A stretch of DNA of 64,000 bases. Origin: Microbotryum violaceum. Lineage: Eukaryota. The translations under genes and the position numbers were made by a program. Location of the stretch: positions 744,001 through 808,000 of the forward strand of contig CDLV01000016.1 of the NCBI GenBank assembly GCA_001244265.2, read 5' to 3'. Positions 23,982 to 47,956 of the stretch are shown here, one piece after another; position 1 is the stretch's first letter, and every line of letters starts with the position of its first letter. Below the pieces are notes generated by a model. It saw only the letters and a list, made by a program, of their open reading frames with translations. It was not told the DNA's origin and searched no databases.

Positions 23982-26147
23982 CTACTCGGCTCTCCACCCT
24001 TCACTGTTCAAAATCAGCTTGTAATAGAATCTGATCACGTCTAGATGAGCCGAAACGTGCATCCGTTCGTCCACGGTATGGAAATTCTTGAGTTTGTCCA
24101 TCTGGGCGGGCAGAAAGCGGTAGATGTTGTGGGTCAAGTTCCATGTCCACTTCGTGTCGGTATTGGCTGTCGAGAAATATATCAGTAGTCGTTAGCGATC
24201 GTTTCGCCAGCACGGACCATAACAGTGCACTGCGCCCTCGTTGGGTGTGCCGCAGCGCCGAGATTTTTGCTCGTCAACACAGACTCACCGACCATGCCAG
24301 ACGGAGCGACGATTGGCCTGTCGAAGACATGTCTGATTGTTCCACTCATAAGCTCGTACGCCGGTCCCGAACTCGGCGTCAAAGGAGCAGGTTCGATCTC
24401 GCTTCCCTCGCGATGGATCAATCGAACAACCTGCTGAGTCGTGCCATTGTTTGACCCGTAGGCGTCAAAGGTCAAGTTTGCCGACCTGACCACCGGTTCT
24501 AGGATCGAAGCAATGCGAGCTTTGTGCGCTGCGACAGACGAATCGAACCTGATTCGATAGTTGATAGTAGCATGGGTGTACTCAGGAAGCGCGTTGACCT
24601 GGACAGAACGCGATGACCATAAGTTCTCCGCGCACCCTCACCCGGTATACTTGGCTCCTTTTGCGCAGAGTTACTCACCTTGACGCCACCATCGACCAAA
24701 TCGATGGCTTGGGTCGTCGAAAGGAAAGCCCGTAGAACCTCGCTGGACTGAGAGAGGTCCTCGCTTAAAGCGTTCCACTTCGTTGGATCGCGAACACGCT
24801 TTTTGAGAGTGTTGCTCATGTTTCCATGGTCGGCAGCGCACTGCAGATAGCTGAGCATCGGATGCCCTTTGTCCATGCTCGGCGGATCTGGATGGTCCTC
24901 AAGCGCAACCAGTAACCGCGACATTATCCCAATGCCCGTATGTCGACCGTGCGGGACCGAGGAATGCCCACCCGGGGTGAGGACCTCGAGGTCCAAGTTG
25001 ATCGCCCCCTTTTCGGCCAGCCCTAAACGAGCGAATTGCACGCCGTACGACTGATCCAGGCCCGTGAAGCCCTCGTCGAGGATGAGGGCAACACCATTCT
25101 TGCCATAAATCTGCCCCAATCGCTCGGCAATGAGTCGAGCAGACCGCACCCCGCTGATCTCTTCGTCAAATCCAAAAGAAAGCACGATCGCTCTTTCCGG
25201 TGTGTACTGTTCGGAGAGCAGCTGCTCGATCGCGGAGAGAATCCCAATCAAAGTGTTCTTGCAGTCTGTTGTGCCTCGGCCCCAGATCCAACCATCGGAG
25301 TCAACGTGTCCCGAAAAGGGCCCATAGGTCCATTGCGATTCTGTTGAAGGATTGACGGGCACGGCGTCTTGGTGGGCCATGAACACCTGCGGCAAATTAT
25401 CGGAGCACCCATACAATTAGCCCGTCGAGCAGGAGTCAGAGGAATCACACTTACGATGGGTTTAAGCTTCGAGTTCGTGCCTTTGTAAGTCATAATGAGA
25501 CCAAACCTTGCCACTTTCTCAATTTCCAGATGGGACCAACTGTGATCAAAACTGGCGCTGTCAGGTCGGCTCACACCTCCAGATATCAACTTGCCCGAGC
25601 CGCCGGGCACACATACACTCGAGGAAAGGTTTTTTCAATGTACTCGTGCTGCTTGGCAAAGATGTCGAAGCGTGGGTCCTTGAATGGGTCGCTGCGCATG
25701 TCATCGTAACTCTGCGTTGGCTGTGAAGCGAACAGGTCGATGACCGGAAGCGTAACTAGTGCAACGGTCAGCCGACGGGGTCCGATCGGCAAAGAGACCG
25801 AGAAGACGAACAATCTGCACAGCCCCGATGAGTCGCTCGATAGCTAGTCGAGAGTAGTGCTCGTCCTTTGCCGGTTGCCAGTCGTGGCCAACGTTGCGGG
25901 GTTCGGTTTGCACTGGGCACGAAGCGCCTCCCGCGATTGCGGCCGACCAAGGCCAAGCTCCGTGGTGCTCATAATCGTGGAAAAGGAACCGCAGCGGCTG
26001 AAGAAGGATGCCGGCCCAGGGTGAGAGCGTCGCCAGACAGTAAAGTGAAGGGATCAAGCAACAGGCAAGCACGACCGACTTGACGGCGTTGACACGGCGT
26101 CTCGATTCGGTTGCCGACGCCGGCGGGCCACCTTTGAACGTCTGCAT
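23982..26147 (-). CDS. CPS1: Gly-Xaa carboxypeptidase S (M20 family), multi-exon
   Basis: N-terminal TM segment, FMAHQDAVPV, IWGRGTTDCK, SFGFDEEISG, ILDEG, TPGGHSSVP, TTQAIDLVDGGVK, IHTVDER-like C-terminus. Confidence 0.92.
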
Positions 26148-26390
26148 GAGTTGGGGTTACACGGATTAATGACAGCCTCGAGGGGACAACGGGAACCCTG
26201 TGAGCGCAGAGAAGGAGCAGCCTGCAGGACGTCGCCGGTGGCATGGCTGTATATGGCTGGTCCGCCGCGTTCAGCCGCGCTCTGCCAGTGCTCTGCCATG
26301 TTGAATTTCATTCTACTACAAGCCTTCGAACACTTCAACCTCGGGCGCCCTTTTTCGCCTCGGCGCTTTTCTCGCCTCGGGCGCCTTTCG

Positions 26391-26501
26391 TAAGCCGCCC
26401 CCTTGTCTTCGCAGCTAAGCCGCCCCCCTCGTCTCTGCCAAGCCGCCCCCTTGTCCTCGCTGCCAAGCCGCCCCCTTACTTAAGCGGCCAAGCCGCCCCC
26501 T
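26391..26501 (+). repeat. Five spaced copies of AAGCCGCCCCC
   Basis: 11-bp motif recurring about every 23-27 bp; preceded by CGCCTCGG(G)CGC repeats at 26340-26388. Confidence 0.85.
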
Positions 26502-27009
26502 TCTCACACGCGCCCGCCTGTTCAAGTCACGCGCGCGCGCCGCTCCCTCCACGCCGGGACTTAGTCAAATCCGCGCCTCTCACACGTTGCCGAGCCAAAG
26601 CAGCTACGTCGACGCCCCACCAGTAGCCTCAGCGGTCGCTACATCCCAAGTCCGAAACCTCTTCGGCATCCACTCAACATGCCAGGACCCCCGAAAGCCC
26701 AGCCTGAGGCGCGTAGGTAAAATCCTCGAAAATCCGGGATTTTGGACCTTATTTGTCCACCAAATCTTGGATTTTTCGGCCAAAAAGGTGCCCAAAATGT
26801 CCAGTCCATCTACGCGCCTCAAAAATAGCTCTAAAATTGCTTCAAATGCTCAAAAACATCTCCAAATATCGCGAAAACGCCGTCCGGACGGTTTTCGCCC
26901 GAGCCGAACCAGCGGCGGAGCCCGCGCGAGCCCGCGCGCGTGTCAGCCGATTCGGTTCTGCTTCGCCGAGGGCTCCTCACCTGCACTTGCTGGCTTCCTT
27001 TTTGACTCT

Positions 27010-30000
27010 ACATCTTTCACGCCCTTCATTTGATTACTCAAGGACACAGAAGCGTCCCGTAATCCGTTGCAGCGTCGAAGAAAACAAAATCTTGCCTCAG
27101 CCTGCTGGCTCAAGTCGAAGACACGCTCCCCGAGGTATGCAACTGAATCCAGTGGTGCGAGAGTGAGCGCGGGCATCGAGGATGATTCCAAGGATTAAAT
27201 GATTTGTCGAGCATCGAGTCCAAAGAAACCAGTCGTGCCGTCAATCATATGCGTTGAATAACGGCCCTTGCTGACAACTTGCAATTCTTGGAGGACGACA
27301 TTCGATAGTAATGCTAGGGGTCGGTTTCCGCTCTGTCACAATGATTTGACGTGGCCTTGGCATACATGTAACGTACTACGAGAGGCAAGATCGATGTCAG
27401 TCACTCTGCAAAGCAGTAAGCTAGCTACAGTGAGATGCACAAACCAAGTCCAATGGACAATTGTTCTTCTCCTATGTTGCTGGCGTCACAACTGACCGGT
27501 TTGATGCCTCGTTTCAATCCAAAGCAGACAAGAGAGCCGATTTTCAAAGGCGTAGCTGACGTGACGTTTCCGTCGATCGACCCAAACATTGGGATCTTGG
27601 CGAATGCCGTGTATTGCCTTGCTCGCGATTGCATCCGTACCTGGGCAAGAATGAACATTATTGATGAGCACTCTCCGGGCCATATGTGCAGAGCACACAA
27701 TTGTAGCTCACTTCTTTACGTCCGTCTTCGATGTATCTTATGTTGTCTGTCTCGTTTGCGGTCGAAAAGCGACTGAAGGTCCCTTGTCCTGTCCAACGAA
27801 CGGACCTCGCGACTCCTGACACGGCTTCGAGACGGGCTGCACCCATTGATTGCACTAAGCCTCGGAGGACACTGGAGTGCACTTCACCGTGCTCGGACAA
27901 TTTTGCTTTTGATGTGGGATCGGAATCTTGGGCAGTCGAGGTGGTGGCGCCGTGCCTTCCCTTGAGTAGGACAACTCTGAGGTGGGCACATTGATGGGCC
28001 CGACGGTGCTGGATTAAGCTTTTCAGATCAAGCGCAAGCTGACGAGAGTCGTGACGCAGAAGGGATGAGAGTAGAACAATTTTAGCCTGTGAAAGAATGC
28101 TGGTTCCGTTTAGTGTTGCTACACGAGAACAACTGCTGCTTAAATGAACCTACACGACCCGGCAAACTTTCATTTGCTGTCACAATGGCGTCGAGCAGGA
28201 AGCGTTCCTCTGCTTGAGCATCGGCCTCGTCATAGGCCTGCTGAACGGCAAGCCTAGAATTGGACGAAATGAGTTATCAGCTCAGGGGAGACTGGTACAG
28301 GTCTCAAAGCACTCACCTTACAGTGCAGCATCATTGTCAAGGCCAAGAGCAGCTAAAGAGCGAACAGCGTTTTTAACTGACTTCCGCTCTTTCGGGTCCA
28401 GCACGACGAGACCTTGGCACGTTTTGGTGCGGATCCCATCGAGGGTCCGATCTAGGTCAGCGAGGTACAAAAGCGGCTCAGCGTCCTCGGGCTCGAAATG
28501 CCAAGGTTCACTAGCTGGAAGGGGCAACATCAATCAGCTTTGCTCAAAACGAAGCCACAAGCTTGGGCGACACCCACCATTGACCGGTATATCTTCCTCT
28601 AGCTGGTTGGACTTCTGATATTGTATGATATCCCACATTCGAAGACCAAGAAGAAGCTCTTTTGCAAGTCCTGCAGCAACCAAGCTTGTGGACCGAATCT
28701 CTTCATCGCTTGGATAAGCCGCATTGCGACGAGGTCGAGATCGTCGAGCCTGTCATACATGTGATGGTAGCCTTGACGCGAGCCTGCGGTCTCTGTCTTG
28801 AGCTTTCGCATCAGTCCTAGAAGCGCAGTAACTTTGCTTGCCGACTAAAAACCCGAAATATAAGCTTCACGTGAGCTACTGCTCACGTGAAGCCATGAAA
28901 GGAGGATGACTTACCTGCAGGATTTCTGAAGCATCAAATTCTTGCACGACTTTGCGCAAACCGCCAAAAAAATGCTCGACCATCTCCGTACCATGTCGCC
29001 ATGGTATGAACGCTTCTTCCGGCCAAAAGTCGCGGTAGTTCCAAATAAGGGCGATGTTTGCATCGACGACCTTTCGCATACCATCCAGGGTCTCCTTGGC
29101 AATAAAGGACTGCGCGTTGTACCCGGGACGATTGCGGACGAAGGGCAACCAGCCCTCAAATGTATAACGAACCGTCAATAGCATTTTGATACGTTCAATC
29201 GGCTGCAAGGACCTGTTTTGTATCGCGTCGTGAAGCTCGCCGCAGAGAAAGAGGAAGACTATGGCATCGGCATCGGATTTGCCGTCCTCGTAAAGTCGGC
29301 AAGCAAGCGCGAGAGTAGCTTCGGAGAACGCTCGATGCGTCGCATTGTCATCTTGACGATCACGTCCAATCACATCACGTAGATACAAGGTCCTCGCCGA
29401 CTATTCGACGTTGAGCAGCGTCAACAGGTCACGATATCCGATACATCCGGTGCCGCCGTATATTGCCCTGGCGCCTGAATCGCACGCGCTGCGGAGATTT
29501 TTGCTCAGGTGCTTTGCGTCCCGATTGAAGCACGTAGGCGTGTTGCCCACTTGAACGGATGCCAGTCGAATGGCTGGGAAGACTTTGTCGGGACCTGGAG
29601 ATGGAATGACATGTGCGAGCTCTCGCCGACGGTTACCCTCACCGGTATACCCCTCATCGCCGCCAAGTCGCTCTGCCATGACGCGCTGCAAGACGCCTTC
29701 GCTTGCCGCTCCATCCGCCGAGATGGAGGCAAGAAGATGACCGACCCCCGCGTTGACGAGGAATTGAATAACAGATTCCAGTTCATCCGCAGCCTCGGAT
29801 GAACTCGGCGAGTCACCAATCACGAATGCGGCAAAGTATTGGGCTGGGCAAGAAACATCGTTTGGTGCAAGCATGTACACTCGAACCTATTCACAGAAAC
29901 GCCAGCGAATGAGCAACCAATCAAAGCGCCGCGCAGACATAGTCGCCGACCTTGGTGTCAGCGATCGGAGGATTCGGTCCCCGAAAGATACCCTCGAGCT

Positions 30001-32781
30001 CCTGCGTGGTTTCATACACGATTGGCGGGCCAACCATGCCAACGAGCTCGTGACGGAAGATTTTCTGCCCGCGCAGGCGAGCTTCCGCTTCCTTGTCCTT
30101 CGAATAAACCCGTGTTGTCCTGATTACTTGGCGCAGTTTCGTGTCGTCGACGTGGAGGTTAAAGGTCTTCCCATCCGAAAGGATCTTTTGGATAATGCAC
30201 TGCATGTGGGGCTCATCTAAGCCGAACCTGGGCTTTTCGAATGTTGCTCGATGTTGTCTGAGAGGTTTAGAATCGTCAGTAGCCTGAAGGAATGACGGAT
30301 AGCTCAGGTCTGAAACTTGCTGAAGTGTGCGCATCGAGACTCCGCCGACAGTTTTTTGCACCACGCGCAACGCCGTGGGAGATGCCAGAGCCAGCGCGTG
30401 TTCAAAGTCGAGCAAAGCTTCGTCTCGCACATAGCCTCTCATGTCCTTGCCTTGTGCGTCCCGCCTATGCTTGATCACGACGACTTTTGCCATAACTTTC
30501 AGAATGTTGGCTCCAGCCAGCTCGCCGGAAACTAAACCTTGAGCGAAACGAAGATAGACCTTGCCATCTTTGGTCCCCAAAAGTTCCTCCAGACCTTGGT
30601 GTTCCTTGAAAACCTTTGCCATCAAAGCCTCGACGGAAGCCAATCGTTTATTCGTGAACTTGATTGTGGGTCCGACAGCCCGAGGACGATGTAACGCCTG
30701 TGAGAAGGCTTTCGTGCGAAGCAGTGCCTTGCATTTGGCGCAAGGCTCCAATTTCGTTCCACATTGCGACTCCATTCCGATCCTGGTACAGTTGACACTG
30801 TTCACTCGGGGTGCTGAATGATCTTTCACCCACGTCCACTCGTTCGCTTCCAGATTGTTGATCTCACGGCGTTCAGAATGAGTCAATACACGTTTGCCAA
30901 TTCTTGGGAACCTTCTCTTGATGAGCTTTAGCCGAGATGGTGCGCCTCCGCCTCGAGCAGAGCTCTTTGAGAGGTACACCTCTACACGCTTGCCTGTTAG
31001 GCCGGGACATGCGGGAGGATCAGCAAGGCTTTTGCCTTGCGACTGGACAGCCGTTTCGGCGGGCGATCGAACAGCAAAGTAGTGGCCGATCTTGCGCATG
31101 TTCGTGCACGGAGGCTTTTTGTTGAGATGCTTCATGAAGCGAGTGATGCCGTGCCGTGTCTTCATCTTGTGATACGTACGACAGCGACCGCACTGCACCG
31201 TCCTGGGATTCTCGATCTTCACGTCCGATCCTGGGCAGAGCTGCTTGACCTTCGCCCTAAACTCAGCAAATGCTGCGGGGCGAGCCTTTGAGTATTCGAC
31301 GTCTTTAAGATGCTCCTTGGCTAGTCTGGCTCGTCGTGCTGTGATTGATTCTCCCGACTTCGGAGTTTCGTCGTCCGTGGTGCAATCATCGTCCGTGGTG
31401 CAATCGTCGTCCGTGGTGCAATCGTCGTCCGTGGTGCAATCGTCGTCCGTGGTGCAATCGTCGTCCGTCTCGGAATCTGAGCGGAAGCATATCCCGGACC
31501 ATGTCTGCTCGTCATTCTCGATCTCGGCCAGATCCTCGACGTCCAACTCGTTCCTGTCTATGCCGGCAATGGGCGCGGGCAAGTCATGAGTGAGATGTTG
31601 AGATTTGGTTGCGAATGTTGCTAGTCGGTGAAACTAGCGAATGCGAGCGATATGAGCGCGACCGGCCGAAAAAGGTGGAACCGAAAGAAGCTCGGTTTCG
31701 ACGACATTGATAGCCGCTGGTTCGCACGAGGAGCCGTCAGCCTGTTGAGCCATGCAGCCTTGCTTCGGTTCAGTGTTGAGAATATGCAGCTCGAGGTAGT
31801 CAAACAAGGCCAATGCCGAGTTGCGAGCACTCTCGTCGATCCGAATATGCGAGAGCGAGTTGAAGAGCGTCCATCATGTCCTTTGCCCAACATCAACACG
31901 TGCCATTGCCCAATGATCGCGAAAGCAGAGTGGGAGAAACCAGACCGATTGAGGGCGAGCTCTAACGAAAGATCGAAGGTCGGCGAGAGTTCGATATCGG
32001 ACAAGAGAAGATGCGAAGATGTACTTGTCCAAAACTTCACGTTGAGGGGAGTCAGGTTGATGTGTTCTTGAAGCGACCAAAATCGCCATGAGATCGGATG
32101 GGAATGCCCCGTATCTTTGTCGGGTGCTGTTGACGCTTGTACACGCGATGAAGCTAGTACGCTTGTGATGGCAACGTCCATCGCGGTTTCTCCAAGCCAC
32201 GTTGTCCCTAAAAAACGCACGAAAAATAATCCCAAACAATCACGCGATCGAACAAATGAACAAATTGGCTGCTTACCGAAGAAATCGAGCAGCGTGCGCA
32301 AGGACGCGCTACACCCGAGGATCATTGAGGGGGTATATTGGTCCTCAACGAGCAGTGACGGCAGCACCTCCAGAGCCTTAACGATGAGAGGCTGATTTTC
32401 GATATCGACACCCAGATAACTTTTCATCCACTCTTGGCTATTGATAACGACCGAATGCATGCGCTCGGCGTAATCTATATGCCGCCAGATCCTTTCGACA
32501 CCGAAAGGCAGCCGGTGCCCGGCGATAGCGATAGACCGGTAACCTTGTTTACGTGCCGCGGTGATTGCTTCACGATCCTTGAACTTGTCCCTCCAAGCGC
32601 GGAGCGGCCTAGGAAGAGTATCAAACTCGAGAGGCTCGTCTGTCGAACACGAAAGCTGTATTTGCGTGTCTGGGTTGTCGAAGCGGAAGGTGAGAAGCTC
32701 AGACACCCTAACGTCCAAAAGGGGTACCATTCGCTCAAAATCATCGTCAAGGACCTCGATATCCGGATCGTCCAGATACAT
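27010..32781 (-). pseudogene. Ulp1-like protease fused to P-type DDE transposase (spliced, with nonsense and frameshift lesions)
   Basis: Ulp1-like FLGTTWLGE, MMDAL, QQADGSSC(E); ZnF CGRC...HL...C; transposase LHVDDTKLR, SISADGA, RDAKHLSKNLR (DxxH), TEMVEHFFGGLR; in-frame stops at 31634-31636 and 29401-29403. Confidence 0.8.
31368..31468 (-). repeat. 18-bp tandem repeat (about 5.5 copies) encoding DDDCTT
   Basis: (GTCGTCCGTGGTGCAATC)n on the plus strand, near-perfect. Confidence 0.95.
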
Positions 32782-35059
32782 TTTGTCGAAGCTGACTGAA
32801 GCGAGAACGTAGGATAATGACGATGTTGGCACAGACGACGCAACGCGGCGGTGGATGCAATAGACGCGCGCAAGGCTCAGACTTTTCGTTCATCCAGCCA
32901 AGTGGCTATAATTGCAAAATTGTTCAACCAGCCAAGAGGCTATAATTGCAAAATCGAACAATTAGAGCCCTTGCTGTTAATTCGGTACAGCCCAGAGTTT
33001 CCCACGCGCTCCGCACGTTCTTGAGGGTCGGCAAACTTTGGCGTACCAAGCCGAATGTGGCTGAAATGGGTCCCCGATTTGTCCACAGGCACCTACGGGC
33101 CTAGACCCCACCCGCACCGGCGCGTCCTGATTTGTCCACCCCCGACTACGCGCCTTCGCGATTTTGGCCCATCTGAGGCCCCAAATTTGTCCAGTCGGGC
33201 ACTACGCGCCTCAGGCCGGGCTTTCGGGGGTCCTGCTCTGCCAGGCTCTGCCCTGCTCTGCCGCGCTAACCTGCGCTAACTGCGATGCGGCTGGGGCGGG
33301 AATAGTGCATGCACACAAGCCCTTTTCGACAGTTTTGGCCGCGCCGAAACCGCTTTCAGGGCGAGTAGTGGCCACTTCGATCAGTTTCGTCCCCTCCACC
33401 ACATGCACAGCCTCATCGAGTCGCTGGGTCAGGCGCTGGCCCGTGCAGTGGACGGCCATAGTCCAAGATAGTAACCGAGTCACCGAATCGAGTCATAGCG
33501 ATCATTGAACCTCAACATCTACCCCATTACATGATCCTCTGATCCCATTTGATGGGTGCCTTCGGCAGCACACCGACGCTTGCCGGCTGCAGCCCCCACC
33601 CCCACTCGATGCGAAACCGCTCGCGGATCGAGTCGCCGACGAGGGCACAAAGATGGCATCTGTCGCGCCTGCCCACACGTGCATACGTGTTCATTCATAC
33701 TCCTCTGGCCCATTTCAACACCTCTGCACAAGATTGCACAGCTTTGCTCCCTCGTACATGCTCAGAACGAGTCGACCTTCCGAGACCTTTTTCGTTGCGA
33801 ACCCACCGCTGAGTGCACGTCCAACCGAGGCGGAGTAGGAGCAGGGCGAGGATCACACTCCTCATGGGGTAATCATCGGGACAGTAGGCAGTATGAAGAG
33901 TCAGTAACTAAGGGAGAATAATTGGCGGGGCTCTTGGCAGGAACGTGCAAAGGGGCAGTGACTCGATTAAAGAGCACGTCAGGCTCGGGCTCCTACGGCG
34001 AGTCGCAACGTTAACCGAACACCTTCGAAGCAGGCTAAAATGAGGTCGTATCTAGTCCTCACTCGTGTAAAGCCTAAGCAGTAATAGAAAACACAATGCA
34101 CATGTGTGCAGATCGATGCACAGCGATGCACCCGCATGCACCGGGGTGCAGTCCCGGCGCCTGGCCTCGAACTATAGTCGAACCGCTCCGGATCAAGCAG
34201 GCTTGATCAGGCGCGGGACACTCGGATCCGACTTCCAGCGCATGCGCCACCGTACACGAAAGTGCTTGTCAGCAGTTTCACGAGACGACCTGTAAAATCC
34301 AGACGCGCAGGTGCATAAGCACAGTGTTTTCGGAATTCGTGCTACGATTCCGGGACCGGCGTCGGCCGCTCACGCGCTCACCGCTGACCCGCTGATTTCC
34401 CCCGGGTATGAAAAGGCCTAGCTACTTAAGTTGATATTGTTTCCTTGGCTTGGGGTACACAGGACTGCGCTTGGAGAGGCCGTCAAACGACTTTTGAGGT
34501 TCGGCTTTCCTCCCGAAATTTGCCAAAGTCTGCGTTCATATTACCTGTTAGCGTTCTCGAGTTGGAATATGTACTGGCAGGAGCTTCAACGTTGGTGGGG
34601 TCGCCACGTGAGTCTCCGTCTCCTTTGGACACCGAGCAGCGAACTGAGCGAAGAGTCGAAGGCCATCGCCGTGCAGGTGATGTAGGGTGCATTTTAGCTG
34701 CTGCATTTCACGGTGGATCTCGTAGGTGGCTTGCGATTGACGATGGACTAATGCAGATGAACCCGAGTATCAGTGCGTTTTGGTCGAAGAGAGACCTAGT
34801 GTTCGCACTCAAACGCTGTTCCGGAAACGCTCAGAAGTAAGTGTGAGCAAGTGTGGGCCGAGGGAGGCCGAGGGCTCGGCGAGCTTCGGCGAAATTCAGC
34901 AGGATATCAGCGAGCTGCCAGCTGCTGCCAGCCTCTGCCAACTTCTGCCAACTGCCTCCGCCAGTGTCGCCGTCAGCTGAGCAGAGCGCGACGACCACTT
35001 CATCTCGTACCACCTCACCCCACGTTGACACCCCCAACACAGTCAACGCACAGCACACC

Positions 35060-36154
35060 ATGCGCTACACTTCAGCGCAGTTCGACAAAGCCGTCGCAAC
35101 GTCAGTACCTTTACTCTGTAGTCAGTCGTCTTGCTGTCGCATGCCGATCGCTTACATCGGCCACCGTCTTGCTGTGCTCTGTCTGTGCTCGCTCTCATCC
35201 TCCCCATCCTGCCCTACGCCATCGCCATCGCCATCGCGTTCGCTGTCGCCGTGGGCCTCTTGTCGCTGGATCGATCGATCGCTCGCGCCGGCGTAGTGTC
35301 GGCCAACTGCCCAAGGATGGACCCGTGAAGCCCTCTCAACCCGATCAGCTCGTTGTGAGTCTCTCACTACCCCGGGGCGCGTGCCAGTCGCTGGAGTGGG
35401 GAGCATGCGATGGCGGCTCGACCGGCCACGACTTCCTCCCGGGCGACCACCGCTACGGGCAAGCAAAAATAGAGGGAGCGCCGAGTTGAGTGATCGCGAT
35501 CAAGGCGCCGATCTGCTTTTCTATTAGGGTTTGACTCTCCGTCGAACGCTTGTATGGATGGACTCGGGGATGCCAAGAGCTTGTGCACTCGTCCTTGTCC
35601 CAAACGGTTGTCTGCCGTCCGCCGGCGACGTCTTGTCATCCGACAAAGCACGAGTCAGAACCAGACTCGCTCGCAATCGTATCATGAAACTGGATTCTAC
35701 AGACTTCATTGGACCGTTGAGGTGGTCTGGCTCCCTTGATACTAATGTAATCGCCGGCTCGAACCCCTCGTACCAGTTCTATGGCTTGTATAAGCAAGCG
35801 ACCGTCGGCGACGTCAACACCTCTCGACCGGGCATGATGGACTTTGTGGGCAAGGCCAAATGGGACGCGTGGAAGAATAACGAAGGTCTCTCTTCCGACG
35901 ACGCCAAGTCCAAGTACGTCGAGGCCTTCTTGGACATTTTGGCTAAGAACGACAACGAGGAGGGAGCAAAGTACAAAGCCGAGGTGAGTTCGTCGGAGAA
36001 GGGAAGCATATTGCGAAAAGCAGGGGTTGTCAATGCCCTCGACCCCATGCGCTATTGTGATGCGACGATGTCTTGTTGCACGGACTACTGTCGTGCGGGC
36101 GACCGAGCTCACCATCGTGAGCTTACTGTCACTCCTCAGATCGAGTTCGCTTGA
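35060..36154 (+). CDS. ACB1: Acyl-CoA-binding protein (multi-exon)
   Basis: MRYTSAQFDKAV / VGQLPKDGPVKPSQPDQL / FYGLYKQATVGDVNTSRPGMMDFVGKAKWDAWK / IEFA*. Confidence 0.92.
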
Positions 36155-46735: not shown

Positions 46736-47740
46736 ATGTCATCTACAGCAGCCCCTCCAGATGCACGAATTCAACTGCTCTTAGACGACGTGCTCGAGGT
46801 TCCAGATGAGCAATTTGCCGCTATGTCTCCTGTTGCCGAGCTCACTGTCGGCGAGCTTCTCGCGTTCGAATTTACCCGGCCTGACCTGACCGCAACGCTC
46901 GCCGTATCCGAGTTCGAGCCAACATTCCATCGGCATCAGATTCGCCCCAATAGCACCACCCGCGCCTTATTCAACAAGACTCACGATCTTCGAGAATTGT
47001 ACGCCACCGGCTATCGATCCATCGAGGTTCGATCCCCTTGCACGTCGATAGTGGAACACATGCCAATCATTTCCGAAGCATTCTGGCAACATCTGGACTC
47101 TGTCGAGCAGCTGAAGTCAACCATCTCGGATAACGTTGATTGGCTAAGCAATGTTGAGGTCATTGACAAACGCGACGCCGCGTACATCAAGCTGGCAAGC
47201 GCCTTGCTTGTTGCATTTCGAACCCCTTCACTGCAGTTGAGAAAAGTCGCTCATCACGTCGGCGTCTGTAAGCACCACAGTGCGCTTCATCTACACAAAG
47301 CCGTCACCAGCAAGGCCTCACTGCAGTGTTAAGAGCACCGAATCCCTCGGACTCGTCTCCAACATCGTGATTCAGGAGCTCTTTCCTGCGCAAGCCAGTT
47401 CCGGAGTCTTCACCAATCGCAACAGCCGCGGCCAAGCTCGAATCTTCTTCTTGAATGTCACCGGGTCGTCAGCTGCCTTGACACCTACAACTCGAGCGTG
47501 CAGACCGTTGAGCCCCCAGCTGGTTTTGGCTTCGACGGCCACACTCGGCGAGTCCTAGACCCACAGGCGCAAGCGCGATATTACCAGCTGCAAAGCTTCA
47601 AAGGGGTCCTTGCGGCGTCGTTGGCCCCGATTCGGAAGGGACTTGCACATGCTGGCGAGGAGAGGGGTATTAATGCAGACGGAGGGAGCCGAGCCGATAA
47701 GCGCTCGGGACCTTCGCAGGGTCCAAGCGGCCGGCTGTGA
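46736..47740 (+). pseudogene. Internally deleted Ulp1-P-transposase polyprotein (N-terminus joined to C-terminus)
   Basis: The N-terminus aligns with 32781-32400 (ELTVGELLAFEFTRPD vs DVRVSELLTFRFDNPD; GYRSI). The C-terminus aligns with 27380-27020 (VRFIYTK...LGLVSNIVIQEL vs VRYMYAK...LALLSNVVLQEL; QAQARY vs QAEARF). Confidence 0.75.
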
Positions 47741-47849: not shown

Positions 47850-47956
47850 CGAAAATACGTACAAATCAACCCCTCAGACACCTCATCCCGATGTACAAAT
47901 CGGCCAAAAATCGCCGTTTTTCGAGACGCACATTGGGCTGAGCTTTCCCGGGTCCT
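47850..47956. mobile_element. Terminus (TIR plus subterminal) of the composite relic
   Basis: 30-bp terminus identical to 2486-2515; reverse complement CTCGAAAAACGGCGATTTTTGGCCGATTTGTAC resembles 26725-26758. Confidence 0.75.

What the first reader, a model, noticed from the sequence alone, without database searches (positions are those of the whole stretch)
26683..33235. Complete fungal P-element-like transposon with a Ulp1-like protease fused in frame to the transposase
Seen: 33/34-bp TIRs with CA...TG ends and P-type catalytic motifs (VDDTK, SADGA, DAKHLSKNLR, EHFFGGLR). The Ulp1 catalytic-Cys region (QQADGSSC) reads in frame into the transposase ORF across a single TAG (31634-31636, probably once TGG). 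No THAP domain is evident; a CxxC...H...C finger is present instead. Ulp1 capture is known in MULE, CACTA and Zisupton elements. A fusion in a P-type element is unusual as far as I know, and might counter SUMO-dependent silencing (inference).
Basis: partly seen in the sequence, partly recalled or inferred. Interest (0 to 1): 0.75.

Follow-up and report, generated by a model that had tools for sequence, protein, structure and literature searches.

The report
Decayed fungal P-type transposon with protease
This is a broken copy of a common jumping gene of smut and mushroom fungi whose single protein joins a SUMO-type protease to a fruit-fly-P-element-like cutting enzyme, and whose scars suggest that it cuts DNA differently from the fly element.

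Summary
Real, with corrections. The element runs 26684-33234 and ends AGG..CCT, not CA..TG. Its 8-bp target duplication GCTCTGCC is split on the left by a later solo LTR. The TAG is CAG in 10 of 10 sibling copies. One sibling reads open for 752 codons from the protease to the first catalytic Asp, and the 13-copy consensus splices to one 1,732-aa ORF. The transposase of a 93%-identical relative folds like Drosophila P transposase (Z 26.4, next best 11.5); the N-terminal domain is Ulp1/C48. This copy is dead (three frameshifts, four stops). All 38 full-length representatives carry the protease; those named are basidiomycetes. It is under purifying selection (dN/dS 0.23). Added here: TSD-AG/CT-TSD scars beside element ends point to a roughly 2-nt staggered cut, not P's 17 nt. 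The protease's role is inferred; cis deSUMOylation is the likeliest. My paper searches found no description; Repbase was not searchable. The scan already noted this family on other copies and in another genome.

The parts
26684..33234 (-). P-superfamily DNA transposon, 6,551 bp, ends AGG..CCT, coding strand minus; coding-dead copy
26684..26716 (+). Terminal inverted repeat at the element's 3' end (33 nt)
33202..33234 (-). Terminal inverted repeat at the element's 5' end (33 nt, 1 mismatch); subterminal CTACGCGCCT and TGTCCA repeats lie inside both ends
33235..33262 (+). Right TSD GCTCTGCC (33235-42) followed by two scar units: AG+GCTCTGCC and CT+GCTCTGCC
   Evidence: sequence
26279..26297 (+). 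Left TSD GCTCTGCC (26290-97) preceded by a scar unit GCTCTGCC+AGT
26299..26679 (.). Internally shortened solo LTR-like repeat (TG..CA) inserted later at the TSD/element junction, with a 5-bp duplication TGCCA (26294-98 and 26680-84)
   Evidence: 'LTR' is inferred from the TG..CA ends and the 5-bp duplication
32277..32781 (-). Exon 1: ATG and a conserved N-terminal region of 168 aa, function unknown (dN/dS 0.24)
31620..32207 (-). Ulp1/C48-like protease domain in exon 2: His 31913-15, Asn (in place of Asp) 31859-61, Cys 31724-26; broken here by a 1-bp deletion at 32114, TGA 31874-76 and TAG 31634-36
31330..31619 (-). Acidic linker with 18-bp repeats (DDDCTT)n, unconstrained (dN/dS 0.92); approximate bounds
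31106..31192 (-). C/H-x2-C..H..C zinc finger (BED-like by recall; no family hit)
30731..31009 (-). Second cysteine domain, four invariant Cys around YLxRTxAxGGG and an invariant Trp; probable DNA-binding module in place of THAP (inferred)
28915..30620 (-). HTH + split RNase H + GTP-binding-type insertion: D 30146-48, D 29713-15, DxxH 29509-20, E 28975-77; introns 30258-30320 (GC-AG) and 29887-29950; TAG at 29398-29400
26940..28844 (-). C-terminal exons 5-10 (28844-28578, 28514-28322, 28253-28154, 28086-27712, 27640-27445, 27375 to the stop near 26940)
   Evidence: spliced joints for four of these introns

Best explanation
A decayed copy of a multi-copy, THAP-less basidiomycete lineage of the P superfamily. 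One spliced gene encodes N-terminal region - Ulp1-like cysteine protease - acidic linker - two zinc modules - HTH - P-type RNase H with insertion domain - C-terminal domain (shown from sequence and models). The element moves by cut-and-paste into GC-rich 8-bp targets and leaves internal-deletion derivatives (shown from copies). It cuts the non-transferred strand about 2 nt inside each end, so excision leaves TSD-AG-TSD or TSD-CT-TSD, and it sometimes re-enters its own scar (inferred from flanks). The protease is most likely an active SUMO isopeptidase carried to the element's ends by the transposase's DNA-binding modules. There it strips SUMO in cis from silencing chromatin factors or from the transpososome (inferred). 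Within the overall confidence: identity and fusion about 0.95; short stagger about 0.65; SUMO as substrate about 0.6; anti-silencing as the main purpose about 0.4.
For: Fusion: natural open frames of 752 and 758 codons in L003 and L002; a stop-free 1,732-aa consensus over 10 exons; spliced joints in run X4 at 6 of 9 predicted introns and none listed between protease and finger. P type: Foldseek 6p5a E 1.7e-13 against Hermes 4e-4; Z 26.4, rmsd 3.5, 395 aligned against next best 11.5; Atlas neighbours carry PF21787/88/89, TM 0.71-0.80. Protease: Pfam C48 21.2 bits over the 20.7 cut-off in L003; the family profile hits yeast Ulp1 at 6.9e-18 and SENP1 at 9e-15, ahead of XopD and the bacterial DUBs; model pLDDT 90 matches XopD, SENP1 and Ulp1; His in 37 of 38 and Cys in 37 of 38; dN/dS 0.23. 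Mobility: 485 TIR ends against 1 control; 19 of 35 exact 8-bp TSDs. Scars: 6 of 162 ends have an exact 8-mer repeat touching the end, all with a 2-nt spacer, 7 of 7 spacers AG or CT, 5 independent sites; AG or CT make up 14% of flank dinucleotides. Precedent for anti-silencing: Ulp1-carrying VANC/KIU Vandal elements (PMC13317346, passages).
Against: No protease activity or substrate was shown. The fold search ranks XopD-ubiquitin, SENP1 and Ulp1 about equally, and NEDD8 protease also appears, so SUMO specificity rests on sequence affinity only. The Microbotryomycete members have Asn at the catalytic Asp position. No contig among the 30 pieces listed from the spliced run bridges the protease-finger junction, and that run's kind is not on record. 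The folded transposase was P0004, a 93%-identical relative, not this copy. Scars are few, could come from end processing during repair, and one at this site has a 3-nt spacer (AGT). 16 of 35 two-ended elements lacked an exact TSD as anchored. None of the 8 copies scored over all exons is intact.
Confidence: 0.6

Rival explanations
1. Same element and fusion, but the protease acts on the transposition reaction or its repair rather than on silencing: it removes SUMO or ubiquitin from the transposase or from repair factors at the excision break.
For: The protease is always in the same polypeptide as the catalytic core (38 of 38), which places it at the break. PMC2836005 (passages) proposes this role for Ulp1 and OTU domains of Ginger1. 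Many internal-deletion copies show frequent gap repair.
Against: Tethering fits cis anti-silencing equally well; no test here separates the two.
Confidence: 0.25
2. The protease processes its own polyprotein, as CE-clan viral proteases do after Gly-Gly (recalled), and releases the transposase.
For: A conserved xGGG motif lies downstream (Gly in 46, 50 and 55 of 55 rows). His-Asn-Cys triads occur in a viral processing protease of this clan (ASFV pS273R; recalled, not checked).
Against: The GGG lies inside a domain closed by four invariant Cys, so cutting would split it. The linker behind the protease has GG in only 10 of 38 proteins, at unrelated places.
Confidence: 0.1
3. The protease domain of the Microbotryum branch is a catalytically weak or dead SUMO/ubiquitin-binding module, or mere cargo.
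For: Asp>Asn in all Microbotryomycete families; Pfam score only at the threshold.
Against: His, Gln and Cys are kept and Asn is fixed across families about 30-45% identical; dN/dS 0.23 against 0.92 in the neighbouring linker.
Confidence: 0.05

Closest known systems
Drosophila P element transposase and THAP9/Pdre elements (P superfamily; PDB 6p5a, 6pe2; Pfam PF12017, PF21787-PF21789)
   Same: HTH, split RNase H and helical insertion superpose over 395 residues; DDE with DxxH; 8-bp TSD; short TIRs with internal repeats; internal-deletion derivatives.
   Different: No THAP (described as animal-restricted in PMC7776569, passages); two other zinc modules instead; N-terminal Ulp1 domain; about 1,730 aa; AG..CT ends (CA..TG for P is recalled); scars suggest a 2-nt rather than 17-nt stagger; GTP use untested.
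Fungal P elements of Allomyces and Pucciniales (PMC5751038, passages)
   Same: Fungal hosts, P superfamily.
   Different: That survey found 11 transposase-bearing copies ('single occurrences') using Pfam P domains and never mentions Ulp1, SUMO or peptidase. Here one genome has 485 TIR ends and four families, and Pfam P domains mostly miss them (7 of 47 weak HTH hits, 1 over cut-off). Whether the rust elements belong to this lineage was not tested.
Ulp1-bearing transposons: KIU/VANC Vandal MULEs, C48-MULEs, Ginger1 (PMC13317346, PMC2836005, passages); CACTA and Zisupton (recalled)
   Same: A captured C48 protease domain kept by a DNA transposon; anti-silencing or repair roles proposed.
   Different: Different transposase superfamily. 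The domain is N-terminal and fused to the transposase here, C-terminal in Ginger1 and on a separate VANC gene in Vandal.
Ulp1/SENP1-3/5 SUMO proteases (MEROPS C48, clan CE)
   Same: Fold and HW..[D/N]S..Q..CG motifs.
   Different: His-Asn-Cys in the Microbotryomycete branch; substrate unknown.

Membership tests
P superfamily | DDE RNase H core with DxxH and a P-type helical (GTP-binding) insertion, preceded by HTH | tested here: met
   Z 26.4 to 6p5a residues 137-565; Foldseek E 1.7e-13; Atlas PF21787/88/89 neighbours; model of relative P0004; motifs conserved
P superfamily | 8-bp target-site duplication | tested here: met
   19 of 35 exact; window copy GCTCTGCC once the LTR is set aside
P superfamily | Terminal inverted repeats, multi-copy with internally deleted derivatives | tested here: met
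Animal P elements/THAP9 | N-terminal THAP (C2CH) domain | tested here: not met
   No THAP hit in Pfam; the position is held by a protease and other Cys patterns
Animal P elements/THAP9 | CA..TG termini (recalled) | tested here: not met
   TSD register puts the ends at AGG..CCT; C..G flanks only 5 of 19 exact-TSD elements
Drosophila P element | 17-nt staggered cleavage (PMC7776569) | tested here: inconclusive
   Scars hold only 2 element bases, which suggests a short stagger, but repair trimming cannot be excluded
Drosophila P element | GTP as cofactor | not testable with these tools
   Insertion fold present; binding not tested
hAT superfamily | Hermes-like fold and hairpin-derived palindromic footprints | tested here: not met
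   Hermes Z 9.1, rmsd 7.4 against P Z 26.4; scar spacers are element-end bases, not palindromes of the flank
Ulp1/C48 protease | C48 profile and CE-clan fold | tested here: met
   Pfam 21.2 bits over 20.7; family profile to Ulp1 6.9e-18; fold TM about 0.55-0.6 to SENP1/Ulp1
Ulp1/C48 protease | His-Asp-Cys triad | tested here: inconclusive
   H-D-C in 27 of 38 relatives; H-N-C in 5 of 38 and in this family
Ulp1/C48 protease | SUMO isopeptidase activity | not testable with these tools
   needs an assay
KDZ / Plavaka / MULE / CACTA fungal transposases | Own Pfam transposase domains | tested here: not met
   No such hit in 54 relatives or in the window frames

The most novel reading that the evidence does not exclude
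A distinct, old and abundant basidiomycete sister lineage of P elements that replaced THAP with new zinc modules, cuts with a roughly 2-nt stagger at AG..CT ends, re-enters its own excision scars, and uses a transposase-tethered deSUMOylase as a sequence-specific anti-silencing device. It would give both a simpler P-type chemistry and a direct test of SUMO-dependent transposon silencing in fungi.
Probability: 0.3. Interest if true: 0.8.

Novelty: new variant of a known kind. Interest (0 to 1): 0.58.

Why it matters
A survey of fungal DNA transposons treats P elements as nearly absent from fungi (11 copies; PMC5751038). This lineage has hundreds of ends in one 33-Mb genome and relatives across mushrooms, filed in databases as hypothetical or 'ubiquitin-like protease' proteins, so it inflates ULP gene counts and is missed as a transposon. 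It adds P to the superfamilies that have captured a Ulp1 domain, here fused to the transposase and under selection, which makes the long-open question of what transposon Ulp1 domains do testable with one point mutation. If the 2-nt stagger holds, the 17-nt cut of the fly enzyme is not a property of the fold.

Tried and rejected
Two separate genes: rejected. Original TGG codon: rejected. CA..TG ends with a shorter TSD: rejected. 'No TSD, so rearranged' for this copy: first assumed, then rejected once the inserted LTR was found. Pfam on the raw window frames found neither domain; the lesions split them. A PDB sequence search with the family profile gave no P transposase up to E 10; only structure found it. 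The Atlas gave no usable hit for the zinc region. RIP-like origin of the lesions: C>T rates were highest at ACG, TCG and CCG (0.19-0.22) but not TCG-specific, and the TAG arose in a CCA context. The main deletion derivative does not make a long in-frame N+C chimera: most of 19 loci (some overlapping) reach a stop within about 14 codons of the junction. No RNA holder is listed as such; this says nothing on expression. A word search for proteins over 3,500 aa found none; the profile search at near length returned 12, mostly Microbotryum. No complex prediction was run, because enzyme-substrate jobs pass by likeness. Literature: 9 searches found no description of a P-Ulp1 fusion. PMC10502011, PMC4469406, PMC12210899 and PMC12730594 have no 'P element' hit in their main text. 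The Kojima 2020 review is not held. Repbase and supplementary TE libraries were not seen and may list these families.
Full report
Observation. A search of the window's genome with the element gave 130 matches, among them 7 near-full-length copies at 90-100% identity and many internal-deletion derivatives. A TIR pattern has 485 matches in 33 Mb against 1 for the reversed control. Protein searches show at least three more families in the same genome, and their TIRs begin with the same AGGACCC.

Ends and target duplication. Among 35 two-ended elements with distinct flanks, 19 have an exact 8-bp duplication when the ends are set at AGG..CCT. One more (L052) was mis-anchored by a base, 1 has one mismatch, and the rest do not match. 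Only 5 of the 19 have C and G next to the ends, so CA..TG comes from the GC-rich target. The window copy at first seemed to lack a duplication. Its left flank, 26299-26679, is a repeated TG..CA element bounded by TGCCA at 26294-98 and 26680-84, and upstream lies GCTCTGCC at 26290-97, the same 8-mer as at 33235-42. A solo LTR-like insert therefore landed at the junction later.

Gene structure. The TAG is CAG in 10 of 10 siblings covering it (12 aligned). The TGA at 31874-76 comes from a private 3-bp insertion, and a private 1-bp deletion at 32114 shifts the frame inside the protease. L003 and L002 have natural open frames of 752 and 758 codons from the protease past the first catalytic Asp. The majority consensus of 13 copies splices to one 1,732-aa ORF over 10 exons (the first four exons). 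Contigs of run X4, whose kind is not on record, show joints at 6 of the 9 predicted introns, including the GC-AG one. None of the 30 listed pieces from X4 bridges the protease-finger junction, so a single transcript is inferred from the reading frame, not seen. The window copy has three frameshifts, three substitution stops and one insertion stop. None of 8 copies scored is intact.

Domains. The intact sibling domain passes the Pfam C48 cut-off (21.2 against 20.7 bits). A profile of 58 relatives hits yeast Ulp1 at 6.9e-18, SENP1 at 9e-15, then SENP3/2/5, XopD and bacterial DUBs. Its model (pLDDT 90) matches XopD, SENP1 and Ulp1 about equally. The transposase was modelled from P0004, a 93%-identical relative. 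It matches Drosophila P transposase at E 1.7e-13 (Hermes 4e-4) and at Z 26.4, rmsd 3.5 A over 395 residues, with the next best at Z 11.5. The Atlas neighbours are P/THAP9 clusters. There is no THAP. Instead there is a C/H-x2-C..H..C finger and a domain with four invariant Cys around YLxRTxAxGGG, with no family hit.

Distribution and selection. The representative search found 509 proteins at E up to 0.001 and listed 150. Of these, 50 hold at least half the DDE core and 38 have room for an N-terminus. All 38 carry the protease by a family-built profile, including 11 not used to build it; His is kept in 37, Cys in 37, and the middle residue is Asp in 29 and Asn in 5. By Pfam alone, 31 of 47 long proteins hit C48 at E up to 0.1 and 23 reach the cut-off. 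The 20 proteins looked up by name are all basidiomycetes: Microbotryum, Phenoliferia and Agaricomycetes such as Mycena, Coniophora, Pluteus, Lentinula, Fistulina and Sistotremastrum. The window's family is 93-94% identical in the core to Microbotryum proteins. Between two sub-lineages of this family dN/dS is 0.23 in the protease (26.5 synonymous, 20.5 non-synonymous changes), 0.12 in the DDE core and 0.92 in the linker.

Scars. Of 163 distinct ends, 14 have the flanking 8-mer repeated after a 2-nt spacer (up to one mismatch; 0.17 expected from shuffles). With exact matches only, 6 of 162 ends show a repeat, all at spacer 2. All 7 spacers are AG or CT, the element's first or last two bases, at 5 independent sites, and AG or CT make up 14% of flank dinucleotides. 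At control positions away from the end, exact spacer-2 repeats occurred 15 times in 3,888. The window site has five copies of its 8-mer, with spacers AGT, AG and CT. I read these as excision footprints from a cut about 2 nt inside the non-transferred strand, followed by re-entry at the same target. The fly enzyme cuts 17 nt inside (PMC7776569, passages). Repair trimming of a longer overhang is not excluded.

Mechanism. Shown: architecture, fusion, mobility, 8-bp duplication and selection on the protease. Inferred: short stagger, and an active protease brought to the element's ends. SUMO is the likeliest substrate by sequence affinity. Cis anti-silencing is the likeliest purpose, by analogy with Ulp1-bearing VANC/KIU elements, whose Ulp1 function is itself unknown (PMC13317346, passages). 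Action on the transpososome or repair (proposed for Ginger1 in PMC2836005, passages) is nearly as likely. Self-processing and dead cargo are less so.

Comparison and novelty. It works like a P element and passes the core and TSD tests, but fails THAP and CA..TG, so it is a separate branch, not a member of the animal P/THAP9 group. A fungal survey lists P as 11 single occurrences and never mentions Ulp1 (PMC5751038, passages). Nine paper searches and term look-ups in PMC10502011, PMC4469406, PMC12210899, PMC12730594 and PMC12903978 (passages only) gave no description of a P-Ulp1 fusion. Repbase, supplements and the Kojima 2020 review were not seen. Earlier notes of this scan reached the same family reading on other copies and in another genome; they are not independent support. 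Verdict: new variant of a known kind, interest 0.58.

Noticed in passing
window 26299-26679: Internally shortened TG..CA repeat with a 5-bp duplication, inserted exactly at the transposon's TSD junction; about 30 related places in the genome.
   Followed up: partly
window 46736-47218, TIR end at 47936-47956; a further TIR end at 2495-2515: Pieces of a related Ulp1-P family (P0006-like, TIR AGGACCCGGGAAAGCTCAGCC) in the same window.
   Followed up: no
L018-L047 (G000 C1, C2 and others): An abundant 2.3-2.9 kb derivative joins the start of exon 2 to exon 6 at one shared breakpoint; a few variants regain the frame through a second small deletion.
   Followed up: partly
G000 C1 and C2 (one search list): Many TIR ends have no listed partner within 10 kb, and some elements share one flank (L005/L018; L004/L030), which suggests element-mediated rearrangements.
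   Followed up: no
P0005, P0010, P0012, P0015 and this family: All Microbotryomycete members checked have His-Asn-Cys; most Agaricomycete members have His-Asp-Cys.
   Followed up: partly
P0127, P0037: A Coniophora model ends in a methionyl-tRNA synthetase fragment and a Sanghuangporus model is named MARS2; may be mis-joined gene models or insertions at the same host gene.
   Followed up: no
window 24499-25416 (-) and 35528-36154 (+): Flanking host genes: an M20 peptidase and an acyl-CoA-binding protein.
   Followed up: no
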